Of a stretch of DNA of 64,000 bases, positions 17,760 to 58,696 are shown in pieces. Position numbers and translations under genes: made by a program. Position 1 is the stretch's first letter. The number at the start of each line of letters is the position of its first letter. This DNA is from a virus (Duplodnaviria; Caudoviricetes), in IMG/VR virus record IMGVR_UViG_3300044693_000247, positions 21,071 to 85,070 of that record. The stretch is one strand, 5' to 3'. The notes beneath the pieces were generated by a model. It saw only the letters and a program-made list of their open reading frames with translations, had not been told where the DNA came from and searched no databases.

Positions 17760-18221
17760 TCACTCCACCGGCGCCCTCACCCGGACCCCGCCCGGCCCCC
17801 ACACCTTCAGCCGCTCGGGCCGGTCCGGGTTCTGGCTGCAGTAGAACCACCAGCGGCCGTCTGGCAGCTCCGGCGACCGGTAGCAGTGGGCCTTCCCCTC
17901 GCGTGCGATCTCGACCGCCGTCACCCTCAGCATCGCCGCCAGCGTTGGGGCGTGCTCGCCTCCGAGGAGGACCTCGCCACCGCACCACGGACAGCGGAGG
18001 TGCGGGGCGGTCGTGGGCTCAGTGATGGGCTCCGGGGCCTCGAGCGCGCGTAGGGGAGCGGCAGGAGCGATCGGAGGCGTCGGTGGCTCGGCCGGGCCCG
18101 AGGGCTCGTCGGCTACGAGGTCAACGTCGAACGTGAGATCGTCGAGCAGCTCCGGCGGCGGCTCGCGCACCTCGGTGGCCGGCTCGTCGGCGAACTCGTC
18201 TGCGGGGTCGCGGTCGGTCAT
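17760..18221 (-). CDS. Hypothetical protein (acidic Pro-rich N-terminus, CPWCG Zn-finger)
   Basis: ATG at 18221 in ORF 17760..18428. Confidence 0.55.
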   Translation of the reverse strand: MTDRDPADEFADEPATEVREPPPELLDDLTFDVDLVADEPSGPAEPPTPPIAPAAPLRALEAPEPITEPTTAPHLRCPWCGGEVLLGGEHAPTLAAMLRVTAVEIAREGKAHCYRSPELPDGRWWFYCSQNPDRPERLKVWGPGGVRVRAPVE

Positions 18222-18299
18222 GGTAGTCTCATGCACAAGTCCCAAGCGCGTCCGCGATTGCGGAAGGGCACCCCGGGCCAACCGGGGCAACTGCGCCAG

Positions 18300-18329
18300 G
18301 CCCCGGCGGTTATCCTCCGGGGCTTTTTT
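18300..18329 (+). terminator. Rho-independent terminator
   Basis: GCCCCGG-10 nt-CCGGGGC followed by T6. Confidence 0.75.
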
Positions 18330-18504
18330 CGTGCGCCTCCGCTGGCGGTATCTCACCCCGCGCCCCGAACGCCTCTTCGTGCCGCAGGCGTGCGTCCTCG
18401 GTCTGCTCAGCGACCTGGGCAGGGGCATCGGGCGCCACCGGTGCCCGGCCGCCGAAGTCGGGCTCGGCGCGGGCGAGCAGCGCGCAGAGGAGCGCAGCGA
18501 TCAC
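18310..18504 (-). CDS. Small secreted hypothetical protein
   Basis: Signal-like MIAALLCALLARA; overlaps stop of CHAP gene. Confidence 0.4.
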   Translation of the reverse strand: MIAALLCALLARAEPDFGGRAPVAPDAPAQVAEQTEDARLRHEEAFGARGEIPPAEAHEKSPGG

Positions 18505-19013
18505 GCGACACCGGGCGGCGGCTGGGCGGCGCGGTCCATCACGAGGTAGCCGAGGAGCACGCCCCCGTGCGTCTTCTCCGGCTGGCCGCTGTGCCTGGCG
18601 ACGCAGTTCCCTTCACGGCCGCCGTGGTCGTTGAAGGTGTTCCCGCTGATCTCGGTCCCGACGTTGCCTAGGCCGTCCAGGCTCTCGACGATCCCGACGT
18701 GGCCGGTGCTCTCCGAGTGCTTGAGCACGTAGATCGCACCCACGGTTGGATTGCTGTCACGGCAGATGGGCTCGGTCAGCGACCAGAGCTTCAACGTCGA
18801 TCCGGTGCGCGGGAGAGGGTTGACCAGCGTCAGGCGCTTCGCCGCCTCGTCGAACACCGTCCACAGGAACGCGGCACACCACGCCTCGCCCGGCGGCAGG
18901 CGCACGTTCGCCAGGAAGCGGTCGACGTCTGGGCCGCGGTTCTGGCCGCCCTGCTCGTGAACGCCGAGGTACGAGACCGCGATCTCGAGCGCGACTTCGG
19001 TCAGCGTGGGCAT
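18501..19013 (-). CDS. CHAP-domain peptidoglycan hydrolase (endolysin candidate)
   Basis: A.SYLGVHEQGGQNRG..V..F; AWCAAF catalytic Cys; GHVGIVE catalytic His; ISGNT. Confidence 0.9.
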   Translation of the reverse strand: MPTLTEVALEIAVSYLGVHEQGGQNRGPDVDRFLANVRLPPGEAWCAAFLWTVFDEAAKRLTLVNPLPRTGSTLKLWSLTEPICRDSNPTVGAIYVLKHSESTGHVGIVESLDGLGNVGTEISGNTFNDHGGREGNCVARHSGQPEKTHGGVLLGYLVMDRAAQPPPGVA

Positions 19014-19062
19014 GCGCGCAGCGTCGCACGAGGATGCGCGCGCCCAAGTTCCGCGGGGCGTT

Positions 19063-19266
19063 TCAGAAGTAGCGCATCGTCGGGTCCGGCACCTGCATCA
19101 TCACGGGCCGCCTGCGCCGAGTTCGACGCGACATCGTCTCTTTGATCCCCGCCTTCCGCATCGCCTCGCCGGGCGTCCGTCCGCTGCCGATCACGCGGGT
19201 CATGTCCGGGTCGAGGATCACCCACCGGCCGGGCCGCTGGTCCTTGAGCAGGCCGGACAGGTCCAT
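19063..19266 (-). CDS. Small DUF5678-like protein
   Basis: GRWVILD.D.TRVIGSGRTPGEA pattern. Confidence 0.5.
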   Translation of the reverse strand: MDLSGLLKDQRPGRWVILDPDMTRVIGSGRTPGEAMRKAGIKETMSRRTRRRRPVMMQVPDPTMRYF

Positions 19267-20213
19267 CAGAACGCCACCGCGCACCCCGCCCGCCGGCCGC
19301 CCACCGCGCACGCAATCCGGTGCCGCTCCACCAGCCACACCGCTGCCGCCGTCCCCAGGAGCAGCCCCGCCGTCACGTACCCCGTGATCGCCAGGGACCT
19401 TGCTGCAGTGCCGTCGTCGTAGAGCTGCTGGCAGACCAGCCCACCGCGGCCCGTCGCCGCGGCGTTGCAGAAGGGGTTGGCGTCGAACGCTGCCGCCCGG
19501 CTCTGCCACCGGGCGTGCTCGATCACGGCCAGGGTGAGCGGGAGCATGGCGACCGAGGCGAGCGCGACCGGAGCGGTCAGGATCGGAGGCGGCGGGCAGG
19601 CCAGGCAGGGCGCGCGTGGGGCCGGCGGTTGGAGCTCGGGCGCGAGCGGCGGCGGGACGAACGGCGGGGGATCGAGCGGGCGCAGGTCGAAGAACTGCTG
19701 CACCACCGGGGCGACTGGGCCCGGCGCTGGGACTGCCGCCGGCTTCGGCGCCTCCTGTTCCGGTTTTGCCGCCTCATTTGAGGACGAGAAACCGGAAGTC
19801 GGCGCCGCCCGCGCGGCCCGCCGAACGCCTGCGATCTCCCGCGCCGCCCGCAGGCACACCGCCATGTTGCCGCCCGCCCAGGCGGTCGCCCGGTCCGACC
19901 GCATCCGGTCAACGACCCGCCGCTCCACCTCGGCGGCGCCGTGCGCCTTGACCACCATGCCGGATCCGCCGCCCGAGATCGCCACCCGGGTCTCCCGGCC
20001 ATCGGCCCCGTCCGCGCCCTCGGACACCGACACCTTGCCGGCGCCCGTCTCCTCGACGCAGGTCAAGAATGCGACGAACGCCGACGTGAAGCACTCGCCC
20101 TTGTACGGGCGTGTCCCGGTCGGACACCGGGGCGCAGCCGGCGCGCGCTCACCGTCGCTGGCGGCCAGAAGGCCGACGAGGACAAGGCACCAGGCGAGCG
20201 GAGAGCGGGACAC
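19266..20213 (-). CDS. Exported protein with C-terminal TM hairpin
   Basis: Signal peptide, Pro-rich linker, two C-terminal hydrophobic helices. Confidence 0.65.
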   Translation of the reverse strand: MSRSPLAWCLVLVGLLAASDGERAPAAPRCPTGTRPYKGECFTSAFVAFLTCVEETGAGKVSVSEGADGADGRETRVAISGGGSGMVVKAHGAAEVERRVVDRMRSDRATAWAGGNMAVCLRAAREIAGVRRAARAAPTSGFSSSNEAAKPEQEAPKPAAVPAPGPVAPVVQQFFDLRPLDPPPFVPPPLAPELQPPAPRAPCLACPPPPILTAPVALASVAMLPLTLAVIEHARWQSRAAAFDANPFCNAAATGRGGLVCQQLYDDGTAARSLAITGYVTAGLLLGTAAAVWLVERHRIACAVGGRRAGCAVAF

Positions 20214-20743
20214 GGCCGGATCCTCGCACGGGGCGCGGGTGGGCCAAGAAGCGCGGGGCGCTCAGACGCCAACCGGGCACGGCGCGGCGTGGCGGCCCTG
20301 ATCGCCTTCTCTCGACCATTGCGCTCGGCTCCGATCTCGGCCGCCTTCGCGGTCAGTGGCTCGCTAACCTTCGCTGCTTCTTTCGCTGCTGCAAACGCGC
20401 GCTTGGCCTCTGTCTTCGCCGTGCGTGCGGCCTCGAGCCTCCCTCTCAGCTCCGGCGGGATGGCGCGCTTGCGGGTGGCGGCCTTGTGCGCCTGCACTTC
20501 TGTCTGTACGGCGTCGAGCGCCACGATCGCGTCCTTGAGCGCTTGCTCGGCAGCGGCGTACTCGGGGACCAGAGCAGAGCGGGCCTCGCGATAGGCGGTT
20601 CGGGATGCGCGCGCGATCTCGATCCGGTTGTTGTAGTGGCGGCCGTACTCGTGGAATTGGGCTGCGGCTTCCGGCGGCGGTTCGCCATCGGGCGTGAGCC
20701 AGCGAAGGAAGAACTTGTAGGTGTACGACTGCGTTGGTTTCAC
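20063..20743 (-). pseudogene. Truncated TnpB/Cas12m-like N-terminal fragment (no RuvC domain)
   Basis: YTYKFF...QFHEYGRHYNNRIEI...PEYAAAE...KAATRKRAIPPEL...helical pattern matches Cas12m/V-U1-type N-termini as recalled; plausible homology ends near 20290. Confidence 0.55.
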
Positions 20744-21105
20744 GGCGTCCCCATCGTCCACGCCGGACAGTCATCGCACGTCGGACCAGCGCAATACATC
20801 CCGCCCGGCAGCACGCAATCGGTGACCGGCTCCGCCTGCGTGTTCCCCGGCGAGAACTGCAGGCACTTGTACAAGCACGCCGGGTGACCAGGGCACGGAG
20901 ACGAAGGCGCCTCGACCGTCCAGCCGTCGTTCACGGAGCAGGCGGGGCCGGCGTCGAAGCCATCGGAGGCCGTGGTCGCGTCGAGGGCTCCGCCATCGGA
21001 TCCGCCGTCACCCCCGATCACGATCACGGGGTTGTTGTTGAACGTCGGGCAGGCGGGGAAGACAGCGAGCGCGAACGCGAACGCGATCAGAAGAGTGGGC
21101 TTCAA
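20740..21105 (-). CDS. Cys-rich lipoprotein
   Basis: Lipobox-like VFPAC, GGDGGSDGG linker, Cys-rich C-terminus. Confidence 0.7.
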   Translation of the reverse strand: MKPTLLIAFAFALAVFPACPTFNNNPVIVIGGDGGSDGGALDATTASDGFDAGPACSVNDGWTVEAPSSPCPGHPACLYKCLQFSPGNTQAEPVTDCVLPGGMYCAGPTCDDCPAWTMGTP

Positions 21106-22187
21106 GTGGGCCTCCGATTCAGGGTATCACCGAGGGGAAATGGGCCAACATCCGCGTACGCGAACCACCTCTTGAGTCCGCCGATCGGCCTCTCGATCAC
21201 CCACCACGACACGCTGGCCGCCGCGACGGTCACCGCCAACGACGTACCCGCCCACAGATACGTTCCGTGCCGGTGCCTGGTCAGCGGGTACAGCAGCCAC
21301 AATGCCGGCGAGTGGAACAGGTACACCGCGTACGAGATCCGTCCGACGTAAACCGCCGGGCGCCAGCCGAGCACGCGCGCGAACACAGGCGCTCGTCTCT
21401 GCCACAGGTGCAGCACGAGCACCGACGTCCAGACGGCGCAGGCCAGGTACTCCAGCGATATCCCCGCTCGGGCGACGTGGCTTTTCGGCCAGTGGTGGCG
21501 GATCGCCAGCGACGCCGCGTGCACGAGGAACGCGCCGATGCCGAGCCGACGAAGCCTCTCGGCCGGCAGTCCTCGGAGGTCCCACGCCGCAGCGCCCACG
21601 CCTACGGCCAGGGCGTCGAAGCAGAACGGCGAGAAGAACGAGCTGTAGCTGTTGAGGCCCCAGCCGAAGATGACCGCGCGGGAGACCACCCCGATCGCCA
21701 CCAGCGCCAGGCCGAGCGCGATCAGATGCGACGGACGCAAGAGCAAGATCGCCAGCGGGGCCAGCAGGTAGAAGTGCTCCTCGACGCACAGGCTCCAGAG
21801 GTGGACGAGCCGCAGGTGCTTGCCGAGCAGCAAGGCGACGTTGGTGGCGTAGGTCGCGTTCCACGGCAGCTCCGCGCGCACCTCACGGAACACGAACCAC
21901 GTCACCACCAGGAACACCCAGAACACCGGCAGGATGCGCAGCGCGCGGCGCGCGTAGAACGTCCGCAGCTTGTCCCAGATCGGAGCCGCGGACTCGCGCA
22001 GGCGCAACAGGATGCCGCCGATCAGGAAGCCGGACAGCGCGAAGAAGATCCAGACGCCGATATATCCGTGCGCGATGAACGGCAGGTGAGCCAGGCGAGT
22101 CGTGTGCAGCGAGTGATACGCGAAGACCATGAGGCAGGCCACGCATCGGAGGCCGTCGAGGGAGCGGACGTGGCGGCCGGTGGTCAT
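21102..22187 (-). CDS. Acyltransferase family 3 (OafA-like O-acetyltransferase)
   Basis: SLDGLR..A.LMVF.YH, GVWIFFALSGFLI, FYARRALRILP, HLWSLCVEEHFY, GRISYAVYLFH. Confidence 0.95.
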   Translation of the reverse strand: MTTGRHVRSLDGLRCVACLMVFAYHSLHTTRLAHLPFIAHGYIGVWIFFALSGFLIGGILLRLRESAAPIWDKLRTFYARRALRILPVFWVFLVVTWFVFREVRAELPWNATYATNVALLLGKHLRLVHLWSLCVEEHFYLLAPLAILLLRPSHLIALGLALVAIGVVSRAVIFGWGLNSYSSFFSPFCFDALAVGVGAAAWDLRGLPAERLRRLGIGAFLVHAASLAIRHHWPKSHVARAGISLEYLACAVWTSVLVLHLWQRRAPVFARVLGWRPAVYVGRISYAVYLFHSPALWLLYPLTRHRHGTYLWAGTSLAVTVAAASVSWWVIERPIGGLKRWFAYADVGPFPLGDTLNRRPT

Positions 22188-22501
22188 GGGGTCTCGGGGG
22201 GAATGCGCGCGAGCAGATCCAGGATCGCCTTGAACCGCGCGTACCGCTCCGGGTTCTTCTTGGCCACCCATTCGTTCCCTCGTAGTTCGAGAGTCGAACG
22301 GAAGAACTCCAGGTCGGGATCGGAACGGAGCAGAGCCTCCATCTCGGGCGCCAGCTCGGTCAGGGCCTTCACGCGGGGCCATGCCTCGACGCTGTCGTGC
22401 GGATTCCGCGACCAGATCAGAGCCTCGCCGCGGGCGTCTCTGAGCGCACCGTCTTCCCAGCGCCATGGCGGCGGGTGCTTCGCGTCATTGCTCATCGTCA
22501 C
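22184..22501 (-). CDS. Hypothetical phage protein
   Basis: HPPPWRW...LRDARGEAL motif; coupled. Confidence 0.6.
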   Translation of the reverse strand: MTMSNDAKHPPPWRWEDGALRDARGEALIWSRNPHDSVEAWPRVKALTELAPEMEALLRSDPDLEFFRSTLELRGNEWVAKKNPERYARFKAILDLLARIPPETP

Positions 22502-22854
22502 GGTTCTCCGAACGGATCACGTCCGAGTTCGCGGAGCAGCTTCGCCGCCGCATACAGCGTCTCGTCGTACCCGATGCCATCGAACGCGCTTCCACGGCCG
22601 CCGCCGTATTCGCTCGAGTGCTCGTCCAGCCACCCGGCGACGAGACGGTGAATCATTCCGACGAGACGCGGGTCAGCGTGCCGGGCGCGCTCCGCGAGGT
22701 CGCCGATCTCGACTACATCGAGCGGATCGACTCGGAGGCGATCGGCGCACGCCTCGCAGATGATCGTGCCCAACTTCCCGTCGCGCTTCGCCTGATCCAT
22801 CCGAGCGGCGCACGCAGAGCAGAGGTCGGCACTGGTTGGCTTGTCGTCGGTCAT
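22498..22854 (-). CDS. Hypothetical Zn-finger protein
   Basis: CSAC...CEAC; coupled. Confidence 0.55.
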   Translation of the reverse strand: MTDDKPTSADLCSACAARMDQAKRDGKLGTIICEACADRLRVDPLDVVEIGDLAERARHADPRLVGMIHRLVAGWLDEHSSEYGGGRGSAFDGIGYDETLYAAAKLLRELGRDPFGEP

Positions 22855-23234
22855 TCCGTCCGTCCTTTCTCGACCCACCGCCTTCTGCACTCGTTCACGA
22901 ACCTCTCTGCCGCCGGCCACAGGCTCAGGGCAGCGTCTCGCTGGTAGGGCCCGAGGTCTTCCCGGTCTCGCACCTCGTCCGCGAGCTGCGTGATCAACTG
23001 CGACACCGCCCGCGCTCGGTCGACGAACGGCGCATCCGGCGGCGGGATCGGTCTGACGGCCAGGCACACTCGGCAGGTGACCGCGTTCCAATCGGAGGTG
23101 CAGCGGGAATCAGGCGCTTCGCTCGCGACCGTCTGACACGCGGTCGGAGCCCCAGCGGCAGGGCGATGGTGGACCCTGGATGTGGCGGCGGACTCGCGGG
23201 CGGGAGCCGGGTCGGAAAGACGAGGACGGGTCAT
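22851..23234 (-). CDS. Hypothetical protein
   Basis: VTCRVC; coupled overlaps. Confidence 0.5.
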   Translation of the reverse strand: MTRPRLSDPAPARESAATSRVHHRPAAGAPTACQTVASEAPDSRCTSDWNAVTCRVCLAVRPIPPPDAPFVDRARAVSQLITQLADEVRDREDLGPYQRDAALSLWPAAERFVNECRRRWVEKGRTE

Positions 23235-23581
23235 GACGTCACGGTCGCAGCTTGCGGATAAGTGGGAAGCGCTCGCCACCATCGAACGCGATCGTCCGGA
23301 ACGGACGTGTAGCCCCAGAAGGTACCGCCGGGAGCGGGAACCGCGGGCACGAGCCATCCGATCTGGTCAGTCTTTCGGCCGGGCTCGAACTCGACGCGAC
23401 CGTCATCGTCGACCGGCCCGTCCTTGATCTGGTCTTTGAGAGCGCACGAAGCACACAGCAGTTCGATGCGCTCGAGGAACGTCTGGTACTGTCGCCACAG
23501 CTTCACGCCGGTGGCGCCGCACGAGCTGCACCGGTAGGACTCCGGAACGATGACCGCCGGATCGGATGGCGCGGCTGTCAC
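23231..23581 (-). CDS. Conserved-type phage hypothetical protein
   Basis: YRCSSCGATGVKLWRQYQ...TDQIGWLVPAVP...FWGYTSVP....WW.ALP. Confidence 0.7.
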   Translation of the reverse strand: MTAAPSDPAVIVPESYRCSSCGATGVKLWRQYQTFLERIELLCASCALKDQIKDGPVDDDGRVEFEPGRKTDQIGWLVPAVPAPGGTFWGYTSVPDDRVRWWRALPTYPQAATVTS

Positions 23582-24009
23582 GGCCCCTCCCAGATCAACG
23601 CATCCTGATACGTGCATGCCATGGTCCCGCCCCAGACGTACGCGATCGTCTGGTCGACGGTCTTCCCGTCCTCGGACGTCTCCACGGTCACGGTCGCGGC
23701 GTTGTTCGCAGCACCCTGATACATCGCCATCCGGACGCAGTTGTTCGTGCTCGCCGTCGAGCCCGTGAGCACCCAGTCCGGTGAGAGCGGCTGCCCGGGG
23801 TCCGCCCAGTCCCAGGTCATGTCCGGCGAGCACGGCGAGCACTTCGGGTCGCCCGAGACCGCCTGGCAGTGGTCGCCGAACATCCCACCGACGATCGCGC
23901 AGTGGCCCGAGAACGTGGTGTCGCGGATCGGCTCCGGAGCGCCGGGAGAACCGGACGTGGCGTGGGTGCCGCAGCCGATGAGGACGAGGGCGAGGAGGAG
24001 GCGGATCAC
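23578..24009 (-). CDS. Cys-rich lipoprotein
   Basis: Lipobox LIGC after hydrophobic leader. Confidence 0.75.
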   Translation of the reverse strand: MIRLLLALVLIGCGTHATSGSPGAPEPIRDTTFSGHCAIVGGMFGDHCQAVSGDPKCSPCSPDMTWDWADPGQPLSPDWVLTGSTASTNNCVRMAMYQGAANNAATVTVETSEDGKTVDQTIAYVWGGTMACTYQDALIWEGP

Positions 24010-24263
24010 CGGGTGGCCTTCTTCCGGTCACGCTCCCCGGCCTGACCGACGACCTCTTGCGCACGTCGCACGGACACCGACCGGACCCAGATCGATGGCG
24101 TCATCCGGTCGCCAGGCCGCGCCTCGGACTCGATGCGCGCCGCTTCCCTGACCAGTTCCATGCTGGTGTCGTCGAGGTTGATCATAATGCGATTCCGCTG
24201 GCGCTGGGACACAGGTACGGGTGGGCGCCCCCGACCCAGGGGCTCTGATTTCTTGCGGGCCAT
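24006..24263 (-). CDS. Ribbon-helix-helix transcriptional regulator
   Basis: GRGRPP then RIMINLDDTSMELVREAA...PSIWVR; first gene of the leftward operon. Confidence 0.7.
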   Translation of the reverse strand: MARKKSEPLGRGRPPVPVSQRQRNRIMINLDDTSMELVREAARIESEARPGDRMTPSIWVRSVSVRRAQEVVGQAGERDRKKATR

Positions 24264-57767: not shown

Positions 57768-58696
57768 AGGCGCCGTTCCCATATTTCGGCGGCAAGCGAA
57801 CCGTCGCGCCCGAGGTCTGGCGTCGTTTCGGATCGCCGAAGCAGTACATCGAGCCGTTCTGTGGATCGGCCGCGATCCTTCTCGCCGCCCCGGCCCCCGC
57901 GTCGCTCGAAGTGATCGGCGACATGAACGGATTCATCGCGAACTTCTGGCGAGCGGTTGTCCATCAGCACGCCGAGGTTGCGCGATGGGCCGACTACCCC
58001 GTCTCTCACGTCGACCTGCACGCGCGGCACGCCTGGCTGATGGAACGGCGTCAAGCTTTGGCCGCCGGCCTCGAAGACCCTGAATGGACCGGCAACGCTC
58101 AGGCAGCCGGATGGTGGTTGTGGGGTCAGTGCTGCTGGATCGGGTCGGGGTGGTGCGAGTGGGATCGCGATCGGCAACGCGGGCATGGGGATTCAGGCAG
58201 CGGGCAAGGTCAGGTCCCGCACGTCGGCAACGCGGGCATGGGGATTCAGGCAGCGGGCAAGGTCCCGCACGTCAGCGACGGGGGCAGGGGCGCTCCGTGG
58301 ACGTCATCAGGAGCCGTCGCAATGACCTGGCTCGCGAAGCTATCCGCCCGCATGGAGCGCGTGCGCGTCGTTCACGGCGACTGGAAGCGATGCCTTAACC
58401 ACCACTACGGCGGCAACAACACCGCCGTCTTTCTCGATCCTCCGTACGAGGGGTACGAGGGTCTGTACGGCGCTCGTCCGATCGCCGCCGATGTAGCCGA
58501 TTGGTGCCGCGAGAATTCGGGCCTGAAGATCGCGCTCTGCGGGCACCGCGGGGACTACCAGCTCGAAGGGTGGTCGGTGTTCGAGTGGGAGCGCGAGCGG
58601 AACACGTACGGTGGTGACAGCACAAAAGGGGACGAGGCGATCTGGTTTTCGCCATCGTGCGCTCAAGGCGGTGGGCAGCTGGAGTTGTGCGCATGA
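57764..58696 (+). CDS. D12-class DNA adenine methylase
   Basis: PFPYFGGKR, YIEPFCGSAA, GDW, VFLDPPY. Confidence 0.92.
   Translation: MKAPFPYFGGKRTVAPEVWRRFGSPKQYIEPFCGSAAILLAAPAPASLEVIGDMNGFIANFWRAVVHQHAEVARWADYPVSHVDLHARHAWLMERRQALAAGLEDPEWTGNAQAAGWWLWGQCCWIGSGWCEWDRDRQRGHGDSGSGQGQVPHVGNAGMGIQAAGKVPHVSDGGRGAPWTSSGAVAMTWLAKLSARMERVRVVHGDWKRCLNHHYGGNNTAVFLDPPYEGYEGLYGARPIAADVADWCRENSGLKIALCGHRGDYQLEGWSVFEWERERNTYGGDSTKGDEAIWFSPSCAQGGGQLELCA
58171..58271 (+). repeat. Tandem 53/48-bp repeat inside the D12 methylase gene
   Basis: TCGGCAACGCGGGCATGGGGATTCAGGCAGCGGGCAAGGTC..CCGCACG at 58171 and 58224; first copy has an extra AGGTC. Confidence 0.9.

What the first reader, a model, noticed from the sequence alone, without database searches (positions are those of the whole stretch)
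20290..20743. Cas12m/TnpB-like N-terminal fragment without a nuclease domain
Residues 1-150 (YTYKFF..., QFHEYGRHYNNRIEI, PEYAAAEQAL..., KAATRKRAIPPELRGRLEAARTAKTEAK..., ERNGREKAIR) follow the strand-helix-long coiled-coil pattern I recall from type V-M Cas12m and related TnpBs. They stop just where the conserved YW motif should begin. The gene is still coupled (GTGA) to the upstream gene, and no RuvC remainder or CRISPR array is in the window. It is either a decayed OMEGA-type element or a retained fragment acting as a decoy or inhibitor of host type V/TnpB systems.
Basis: inference. Interest (0 to 1): 0.72.

Follow-up and report, generated by a model that had tools for sequence, protein, structure and literature searches.

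The report
Leftover front end of phage Cas12m
This phage gene is the first quarter of a CRISPR protein (Cas12m, an RNA-guided DNA binder) whose remaining three quarters and guide array are gone, so it is most likely a recent leftover of a lost phage CRISPR system and not a working tool, although a role as an inhibitor is not excluded.

Summary
On the minus strand, codons 1-153 (20743 to 20285) are the N-terminus of a type V-M Cas12m. An exhaustive phmmer search found 550-690-aa proteins aligned at their own N-termini (best 3e-49, about 68% identity). The family profile matches solved Cas12m structures end to end (E 9e-139), and PADLOC's Cas12u1 model hits the fragment directly (3e-9).

Homology ends three residues before the family's YWGTYL motif, whose Trp is the PAM-reading Trp152 of MmCas12m2. 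The ORF does not stop there. It runs 73 more unrelated codons to 20063, across the ribosome-binding site and first 50 codons of the next gene.

No WED core, RuvC, zinc ribbon or CRISPR array exists anywhere in the 85-kb phage record. Intact relatives, including about 40 phage contigs, usually carry an array just 3' of the gene.

Best reading (0.6): a recent deletion or replacement left a remnant in a lysogenic-conversion island. It is probably still translated but cannot do RNA-guided binding.

The fragment shows no excess substitutions (59 of 60 subclade-invariant residues kept), so retained function as a decoy or inhibitor stays open (about 0.2). I found the truncated form only as isolated cases; two other independent N-terminal-only copies turned up elsewhere. 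Earlier notes of this scan already describe decayed phage Cas12m loci on other DNA. Interest is modest.

The parts
20285..20743 (-). Cas12m-homologous coding segment, codons 1-153. It comprises the orphan first WED strand (YTYKF), the REC1 helix 1, the REC2 coiled-coil hairpin and the start of the return helix. It ends about 3 residues before the PAM-reading Trp of the YWGTYL motif.
   Evidence: phmmer E 3e-49 to P0003 and 32 other hits, most of them 500-700 aa and aligned at or near their own N-termini. tblastn 67% identity over 20734-20285. Alignment A1. PADLOC Cas12u1 E 3e-9. AF2 model pLDDT 91: coil 1-23 and four helices. Foldseek top hits are Cas12m2 8hhl/8hio.
20063..20284 (-). Non-homologous read-through tail: 73 codons plus TGA, rich in Arg/Pro/Ser/Ala. 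It is translated out of frame across the RBS, the start and the first 50 codons of the next gene.
   Evidence: GC2 rises to 0.8 and the codon-position signal switches to the next gene's frame. No homolog found for the tail. The tail length is about what a random frame gives at this G+C (my estimate of about 46 codons, not a tool result).
20740..20743 (-). GTGA start/stop overlap with the upstream gene (translational coupling). The start position matches the native N-terminus of relatives (M-x-x-QSYTYKF).
   Evidence: Sequence; N-termini of P0004, P0005 and L004.
20740..21105 (-). Upstream gene: a 121-aa Cys-rich predicted lipoprotein of no known family.
   Evidence: ORF and signal/lipobox-like N-terminus. 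No Pfam, PHROG, NCBIfam or PADLOC hit.
19266..20213 (-). Downstream gene: a 315-aa exported or membrane protein with a signal peptide and its own GAGGA ribosome-binding site (20221-20225). It sits where the rest of cas12m and its array would be expected.
   Evidence: ORF; GC3 0.89; RBS read; no family hit.
17760..24064 (-). Minus-strand accessory island that holds the fragment. It includes an AT3 O-acyltransferase (21102-22466), lipoproteins, a CHAP peptidase (18501-19013) and small unknown genes, set between plus-strand phage modules.

Best explanation
The ORF is the 5' quarter of a phage-borne type V-M cas12m gene. It was left behind when a deletion or replacement removed the rest of the gene (WED core, PAM-reading REC1 helix, RuvC, zinc-ribbon TNB) and, most likely, the CRISPR array that normally lies just 3' of it. 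An exported-protein gene now sits in that position.

Shown: the identity of the piece, the exact end of homology, and the absence of every other part from the 85-kb record.

Inferred: the piece is probably still transcribed and translated with the surrounding accessory operon, because the native start is kept and is coupled to the upstream gene. Translation would give a 226-aa product: a helical REC1/REC2 hairpin plus a 73-residue nonsense tail. This product cannot bind a crRNA scaffold, read a PAM or act as an RNA-guided DNA binder. The truncation is recent relative to the split from its nearest full-length relative, and the piece has no selected function of its own.
For: 1. Family and position. 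The hits are mostly 500-700-aa proteins aligned at or near their own N-termini. The family profile matches solved Cas12m chains over their full length: 23vw 9e-139, 8hhl/8hio about 1e-76, 8pm4 1e-71.
2. Nothing else of Cas12m is present in the window or the whole record, and there is no array or V-M-type repeat.
3. Intact relatives have an array directly 3' of the gene: L002, L005/L006/L010, MV-1, and 18 of 24 and 17 of 27 phage loci. One event removing the 3' part would therefore take the array too.
4. The tail is frame-shifted junk that overruns the next gene's RBS and start by 151 nt. This looks like an unpolished junction.
5. The truncated form occurs once: its cluster has 1 member on 1 contig, and no close copy is in IMG/VR.
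6. Among 26 assessable phage loci found by the N-terminal motif, 25 are full length and 1 is a similar stump. That rate is what sporadic decay would give.
7. The first WED strand is predicted as unstructured coil without its barrel.
Against: The 153 codons have no stop or frameshift. They keep 59 of 60 positions that are invariant in the three other subclade members. They carry fewer lineage-specific changes (4-6) than the full-length sister P0003 (7-10). So either the cut is very recent or the piece is still under constraint. The native start and its coupling to the upstream gene are kept. Two other independent N-terminal-only copies break within about 25 residues of this one (L003, L067), which could hint at a favoured module.
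Confidence: 0.6

Rival explanations
1. Retained, functional fragment. The free REC1/REC2 'sickle' acts in trans on a Cas12m of the host or of a competing phage. It could be a dominant-negative or anti-CRISPR that occupies the site where a second Cas12m protomer docks on the Cas12m-crRNA complex, or it could compete for the displaced DNA strand.
For: No relaxation of constraint is visible in the fragment lineage. The frame is intact and the native coupled start is kept. [quoted passage not shown] Viral cas homologues co-opted as anti-CRISPRs are experimentally established for other types (10.1101/2023.06.24.545427). N-terminal-only copies recur independently (L003, L067). Cas12m is present in about 8 of 301 sampled Polyangiales genomes and on many phages, so targets exist in high-GC communities.
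Against: The truncated form is not a conserved family. Each case occurs only once and has a different break point and tail. The 73-residue nonsense tail and the 151-nt overrun into the next gene look unselected. No acr/aca-type or other anti-defence neighbour was detected. The host is unknown, so no cognate Cas12m is identified.
Confidence: 0.2
2. Split effector. The C-terminal three quarters of Cas12m are encoded elsewhere in the phage (CheckV rates the record 82% complete), and the two halves assemble.
For: About 18% of the genome is missing.
Against: No second piece lies in the 85 kb held, and no array is present. The break lies inside a helix just before the YW motif and not at a domain linker. 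The junk tail argues against a designed split.
Confidence: 0.04
3. Assembly artefact. The contig is chimeric at about 20285 and the real phage has a full-length gene.
Against: G+C, strand, codon pattern and gene spacing are continuous across the junction. The downstream gene has its own RBS and belongs to the same co-oriented island. Both flanks are phage DNA.
Confidence: 0.05

Closest known systems
Type V-M Cas12m effectors (MmCas12m2, PDB 8hhl/8hhm/8hio; GoCas12m 8pm4; Cas12m 23vw; UnCas12m4a 23vu)
   Same: The N-terminal 153 residues are homologous to the WED strand 1, REC1 helix 1 and REC2 coiled coil of these proteins. The family's YW Trp aligns with the PAM-contacting Trp152 of MmCas12m2 (PMC10442227).
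   Different: Everything after about residue 149 (MmCas12m2 numbering) is missing: PAM-reading residues, WED barrel, RuvC, TNB and CRISPR array. It is a fragment of a member, not a working member.
Phage-borne V-M loci, such as MvCas12m of myxophage MV-1 (bioRxiv 10.64898/2026.09.14.751636), and about 40 IMG/VR contigs found here
   Same: A Cas12m gene carried by a high-GC phage without adaptation genes. MV-1 (= G014:C476) has cas12m plus 9 repeats, and most other phage loci have an array 3' of the gene.
   Different: Here only the 5' quarter survives and no array is present. The fragment is not close to MV-1's protein (no tblastn hit at E 0.01). Its nearest relatives are P0003 (about 68%) and the L002-L004 group (about 50%).
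Anti-CRISPRs derived from viral cas genes (Katz et al., 10.1101/2023.06.24.545427)
   Same: An orphan cas homologue in a viral genome, away from any array or cas operon.
   Different: Those examples are types I, II, III, IV and VI and have tested activity. They are conserved proteins, some of which sit next to acr genes. This is a type V piece found once, with a junk tail and no known anti-defence neighbour. Its activity is untested.
TnpB/OMEGA elements of IS200/IS605
   Same: Distant common ancestry of the whole Cas12m family, with a shared RuvC/TNB end.
   Different: The retained part includes the REC2 coiled-coil insertion that TnpB lacks (PMC10442227). No TnpB-type match, IS end or omega-RNA-like element was found.

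Membership tests
Type V-M Cas12m effector | Sequence or profile homology to Cas12m | tested here: met
   Met for residues 1-153 only: (Cas12u1 HMM E 3e-9). Foldseek's top hits are 8hhl/8hio, but at a marginal E of 7.6e-3.
Type V-M Cas12m effector | Complete WED-REC1-REC2-RuvC-TNB architecture | tested here: not met
   Only P0003 residues 14-170 match anywhere in the window or the 85-kb record. There is no PF07282 or RuvC hit.
Type V-M Cas12m effector | PAM-reading REC1 residues (Trp152, Asn156 and Gln197 equivalents) | tested here: not met
   Homology ends at ...AATP, three residues before the YW motif.
Type V-M Cas12m effector | Adjacent CRISPR array | tested here: not met
   No array in the whole record. 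No V-M-type repeat. No Rfam hit.
TnpB/OMEGA (IS200/IS605) | Closest profile match is TnpB, with IS ends, omega RNA or TnpA nearby | tested here: not met
   TnpB and Cas12f structures match only profile positions of about 420-560, at E 1e-5 to 1e-14, against 1e-139 full length for Cas12m. No OrfB or HTH_OrfB Pfam hit. No Rfam hit.
cas-derived anti-CRISPR | Orphan viral cas homologue away from any array or cas operon | tested here: met
cas-derived anti-CRISPR | Conserved as such across phages and/or located in an anti-defence cluster | tested here: not met
   The cluster has one member. No close copy in IMG/VR. Neighbours have no acr, aca or defence hit.
cas-derived anti-CRISPR | Inhibits a CRISPR system | not testable with these tools
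   This needs an interference assay.

The most novel reading that the evidence does not exclude
The free N-terminal REC1/REC2 'sickle' of Cas12m is a naturally occurring trans-acting module. It would be a phage anti-CRISPR, or a regulator, against type V-M systems. It would work by mimicking the second protomer that docks on the Cas12m-crRNA complex, blocking crRNA maturation or R-loop completion. This would make it the first type V cas-derived inhibitor, and it would explain why N-terminal-only copies arose at least three times with break points within about 25 residues.
Probability: 0.13. Interest if true: 0.75.

Novelty: new member of a known kind. Interest (0 to 1): 0.36.

Why it matters
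The finding shows that this phage lineage once carried its own DNA-binding CRISPR system and recently lost it. It also adds to evidence, gathered here in passing, that phage-borne Cas12m loci and their decayed forms are much commoner than the one published case suggests. If the stump proved active against Cas12m, it would be a compact natural off-switch for Cas12m-based base editors and gene-silencing tools. As a relic, it is mainly of value for correct annotation and for dating gain and loss of viral CRISPR systems.

Tried and rejected
- Pfam, PHROGs and NCBIfam gave no hit to the fragment. phmmer against PDB with the fragment alone gave only a chance coiled-coil match.
- Foldseek ranks Cas12m2 first, but only at E 7.6e-3 among generic coiled coils. 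It supports the sequence evidence but is not decisive alone.
- A baseplate-protein search shows no homologue on a contig of that length, so that contig is probably not a close relative of this phage.
- Neighbour genes gave no related phage loci. Flanks of L002-L004 and of the other Cas12m loci show no synteny with this phage.
- Host test: no prophage with more than 34% baseplate identity in 301 Polyangiales genomes. A myxobacterial host remains unverified.
- The N-terminal-only match in G063 is a contig-end artefact.
- dN/dS was not attempted. The relatives with DNA are only about 50% identical, so synonymous sites are saturated, and the closest relative has no DNA available here.
- A broad-family alignment was too diverse for the genome scan, and the subclade patterns found nothing in genomes.

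Full report
**What is there.** The window is part of an 85,070-bp high-GC (about 67%) myovirus-like phage record. It carries baseplate, tail fibre, RecE-like exonuclease and primase/helicase genes. Between plus-strand modules lies a minus-strand accessory island (about 17760-24064). It holds an AT3 O-acyltransferase, Cys-rich lipoproteins, a CHAP peptidase and small unknown genes.

The finding is one ORF of this island. It starts at GTG 20743, which overlaps the TGA of the upstream lipoprotein gene as GTGA. It runs to TGA at 20063, giving 226 aa, identical to the protein called in the public record. Codon-position GC supports this frame only down to about 20290. Below about 20230 the signal belongs to the next gene, which starts at 20213 with a signal peptide and its own GAGGA site. 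The ORF therefore has a well-coded head of about 153 codons. Its 73-codon Arg/Pro/Ser-rich tail is read out of frame over the neighbour's ribosome-binding site and first 50 codons.

**What the head is.** Curated libraries of general families gave nothing. An exhaustive phmmer search of 1.84 billion representative proteins gave 33 hits. Most are proteins of about 500-700 aa aligned at or near their own N-termini. The best is P0003 (613 aa, E 3e-49). P0003 matches a solved Cas12m (23vw) at E 4e-31.

A profile of the family matches solved Cas12m chains from end to end: 23vw 9e-139, MmCas12m2 8hhl/8hio about 1e-76, GoCas12m 8pm4 1e-71, 23vu 1e-63. TnpB and Cas12f match only the RuvC/TNB end. PADLOC's Cas12u1 model (the old name of V-M) hits the fragment itself at E 3e-9.

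An AlphaFold2 model built with the family alignment has pLDDT 91. Residues 1-23 are coil, followed by four long helices. Foldseek ranks Cas12m2 structures first, though only at E 7.6e-3 among generic coiled coils.

Using the alignment to 8hhl and the published structure (PMC10442227), the piece corresponds to:
- the first WED strand;
- the first REC1 helix;
- the REC2 coiled-coil insertion;
- the start of the return helix.

It ends about three residues before the Trp of the family's YWGTYL motif. That Trp aligns with the PAM-contacting Trp152 of MmCas12m2.

**What is missing.** tblastn with five full-length relatives finds nothing but residues 14-170 in the window. The same holds for the whole record. 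This rules out a simple frameshift and a displaced remainder within the 85 kb.

No CRISPR array is present. The only spaced repeat is a 53-bp tandem inside a gene. There is no V-M-type repeat and no copy of the repeat of the closest relative that has DNA. There is no Rfam hit.

Intact relatives are CRISPR-linked. L002 has its 36-nt repeat 60 nt after the gene. L005, L006 and L010 have arrays directly 3' of the gene. The published myxophage MV-1 (found here as G014:C476) has nine repeats. Of phage loci retrieved from IMG/VR, 18 of 24 and 17 of 27 have an array starting 60-450 nt after the gene. The parent of the fragment was thus a CRISPR-Cas12m and not an OMEGA/TnpB element. One event removing the 3' part of the gene would be expected to take the array as well.

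**Relic or retained?**
- *For a relic:* the nonsense tail and the 151-nt overrun into the next gene look unselected. The truncated protein occurs once in about 15 billion sequences and has no close copy in IMG/VR. Of 26 assessable phage loci found through the N-terminal motif, 25 are full length and one is a comparable stump, a rate that sporadic decay would give. The first WED strand has no barrel to join.
- *Against a long-dead relic:* there are no stops or frameshifts. Of 60 positions invariant in the other three subclade members, 59 are kept. The fragment carries fewer lineage-specific changes (4-6) than its full-length sister (7-10). The sample is small. Either the cut is recent relative to the ~31% divergence from P0003, or the piece is still constrained.

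Two further N-terminal-only copies exist. L003 diverges after YWGTYLMA from a >90% identical intact allele and likewise reads a junk tail over the next gene. L067 lies on an 83.6-kb phage contig, with no other Cas12m piece within 3 kb and no array. The three break points fall at family positions of about 157, 168 and 180. This clustering is suggestive, but my searches could only find pieces that keep the N-terminus, and other partial forms of unknown status exist. I do not treat it as evidence of function.

**Mechanistic reading.**
- *Most likely (0.6):* a recent deletion or replacement in a fast-turning accessory island left the 5' quarter of cas12m. It is probably still translated through coupling to the upstream gene, but it cannot bind a crRNA scaffold (the WED/RuvC groove is gone), read a PAM or hold DNA.
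- *Main rival (about 0.2):* the free REC1/REC2 'sickle' acts in trans on a Cas12m of the host or of a rival phage. [quoted passage not shown] Viral cas homologues are proven anti-CRISPRs in other types (no type V case is listed there).
- *Minor rivals:* a split effector with the other half in the missing ~18% of the genome, and an assembly chimera. Neither has positive evidence.

**Context and novelty.** Cas12m occurs in about 8 of 301 sampled Polyangiales genomes. No related prophage was found there, so the host remains unverified. A 2026 preprint calls MV-1's protein the first phage Cas12m. My two motif scans found about 40 distinct IMG/VR contigs with full-length relatives. Earlier notes of this scan describe several decayed or truncated phage Cas12m loci in other genomes. 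This stump is therefore a new member of a known kind: a decayed viral cas gene. It is well characterised and of modest interest unless an inhibitory activity is shown.

**Limits.** As a result, the nearest relative's locus, read support for the junction and any binding prediction are all missing.

Noticed in passing
L023-L073 (IMG/VR contigs): About 40 distinct viral contigs carry full-length Cas12m relatives, and most have a CRISPR-like array 60-450 nt 3' of the gene. Phage-borne type V-M is therefore far commoner than the single 'first' case reported in bioRxiv 10.64898/2026.09.14.751636.
   Followed up: partly
L067:2950-3420 (IMGVR_UViG_3300021178_000012, 83.6 kb): A second phage has an N-terminal-only Cas12m ORF of about 157 aa. 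Its REC2 is shortened and it ends soon after YWGTYL...NDPR. No other Cas12m piece lies within 3 kb and there is no array.
   Followed up: partly
L003:170-892 (Ga0209169_10170859): A third N-terminal-only copy is over 90% identical to an intact allele (P0004) up to YWGTYLMA. It then has a 75-aa junk tail that runs over the RBS and start of an unrelated downstream gene, the same layout as in the window.
   Followed up: partly
L002:2409-2519: The closest relative with DNA (full length, about 49% identical to the fragment) is followed by two copies of the 36-nt repeat CTGATTGTGCCTTCGGAGGGGCGTTGTTCTTCCGAC at the contig end. The subclade is therefore CRISPR-linked.
   Followed up: yes
L014 / L018 (G014:C476, 40,687-bp contig): This appears to be the published myxophage MV-1: a full-length cas12m followed by nine repeats (eight spacers).
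   Followed up: partly
KX853510.1:112528-114204 (Virus Rctr197k): A 197-kb GenBank virus carries a Cas12m-like gene (28% identity to P0003 over 91%) annotated only as similar to a transposase.
   Followed up: no
window 58174-58290: A 53-bp tandem repeat of 2.3 copies (87% matches) lies inside a coding region. It is the only spaced repeat in the whole record and is not CRISPR-like.
   Followed up: no
window 21102-22501: The long ORF of the AT3 acyltransferase (454 aa from ATG 22466) overlaps the 105-aa ORF 22184-22501 in another frame. The Pfam match starts at residue 101, so the true acyltransferase start is probably near 22187.
   Followed up: no
A1/A3 alignment (P0006, P0011, P0019, P0031): Several roughly full-length family members lack the zinc-ribbon cysteines or the whole TNB end. 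C-terminal erosion therefore also occurs in this family.
   Followed up: no
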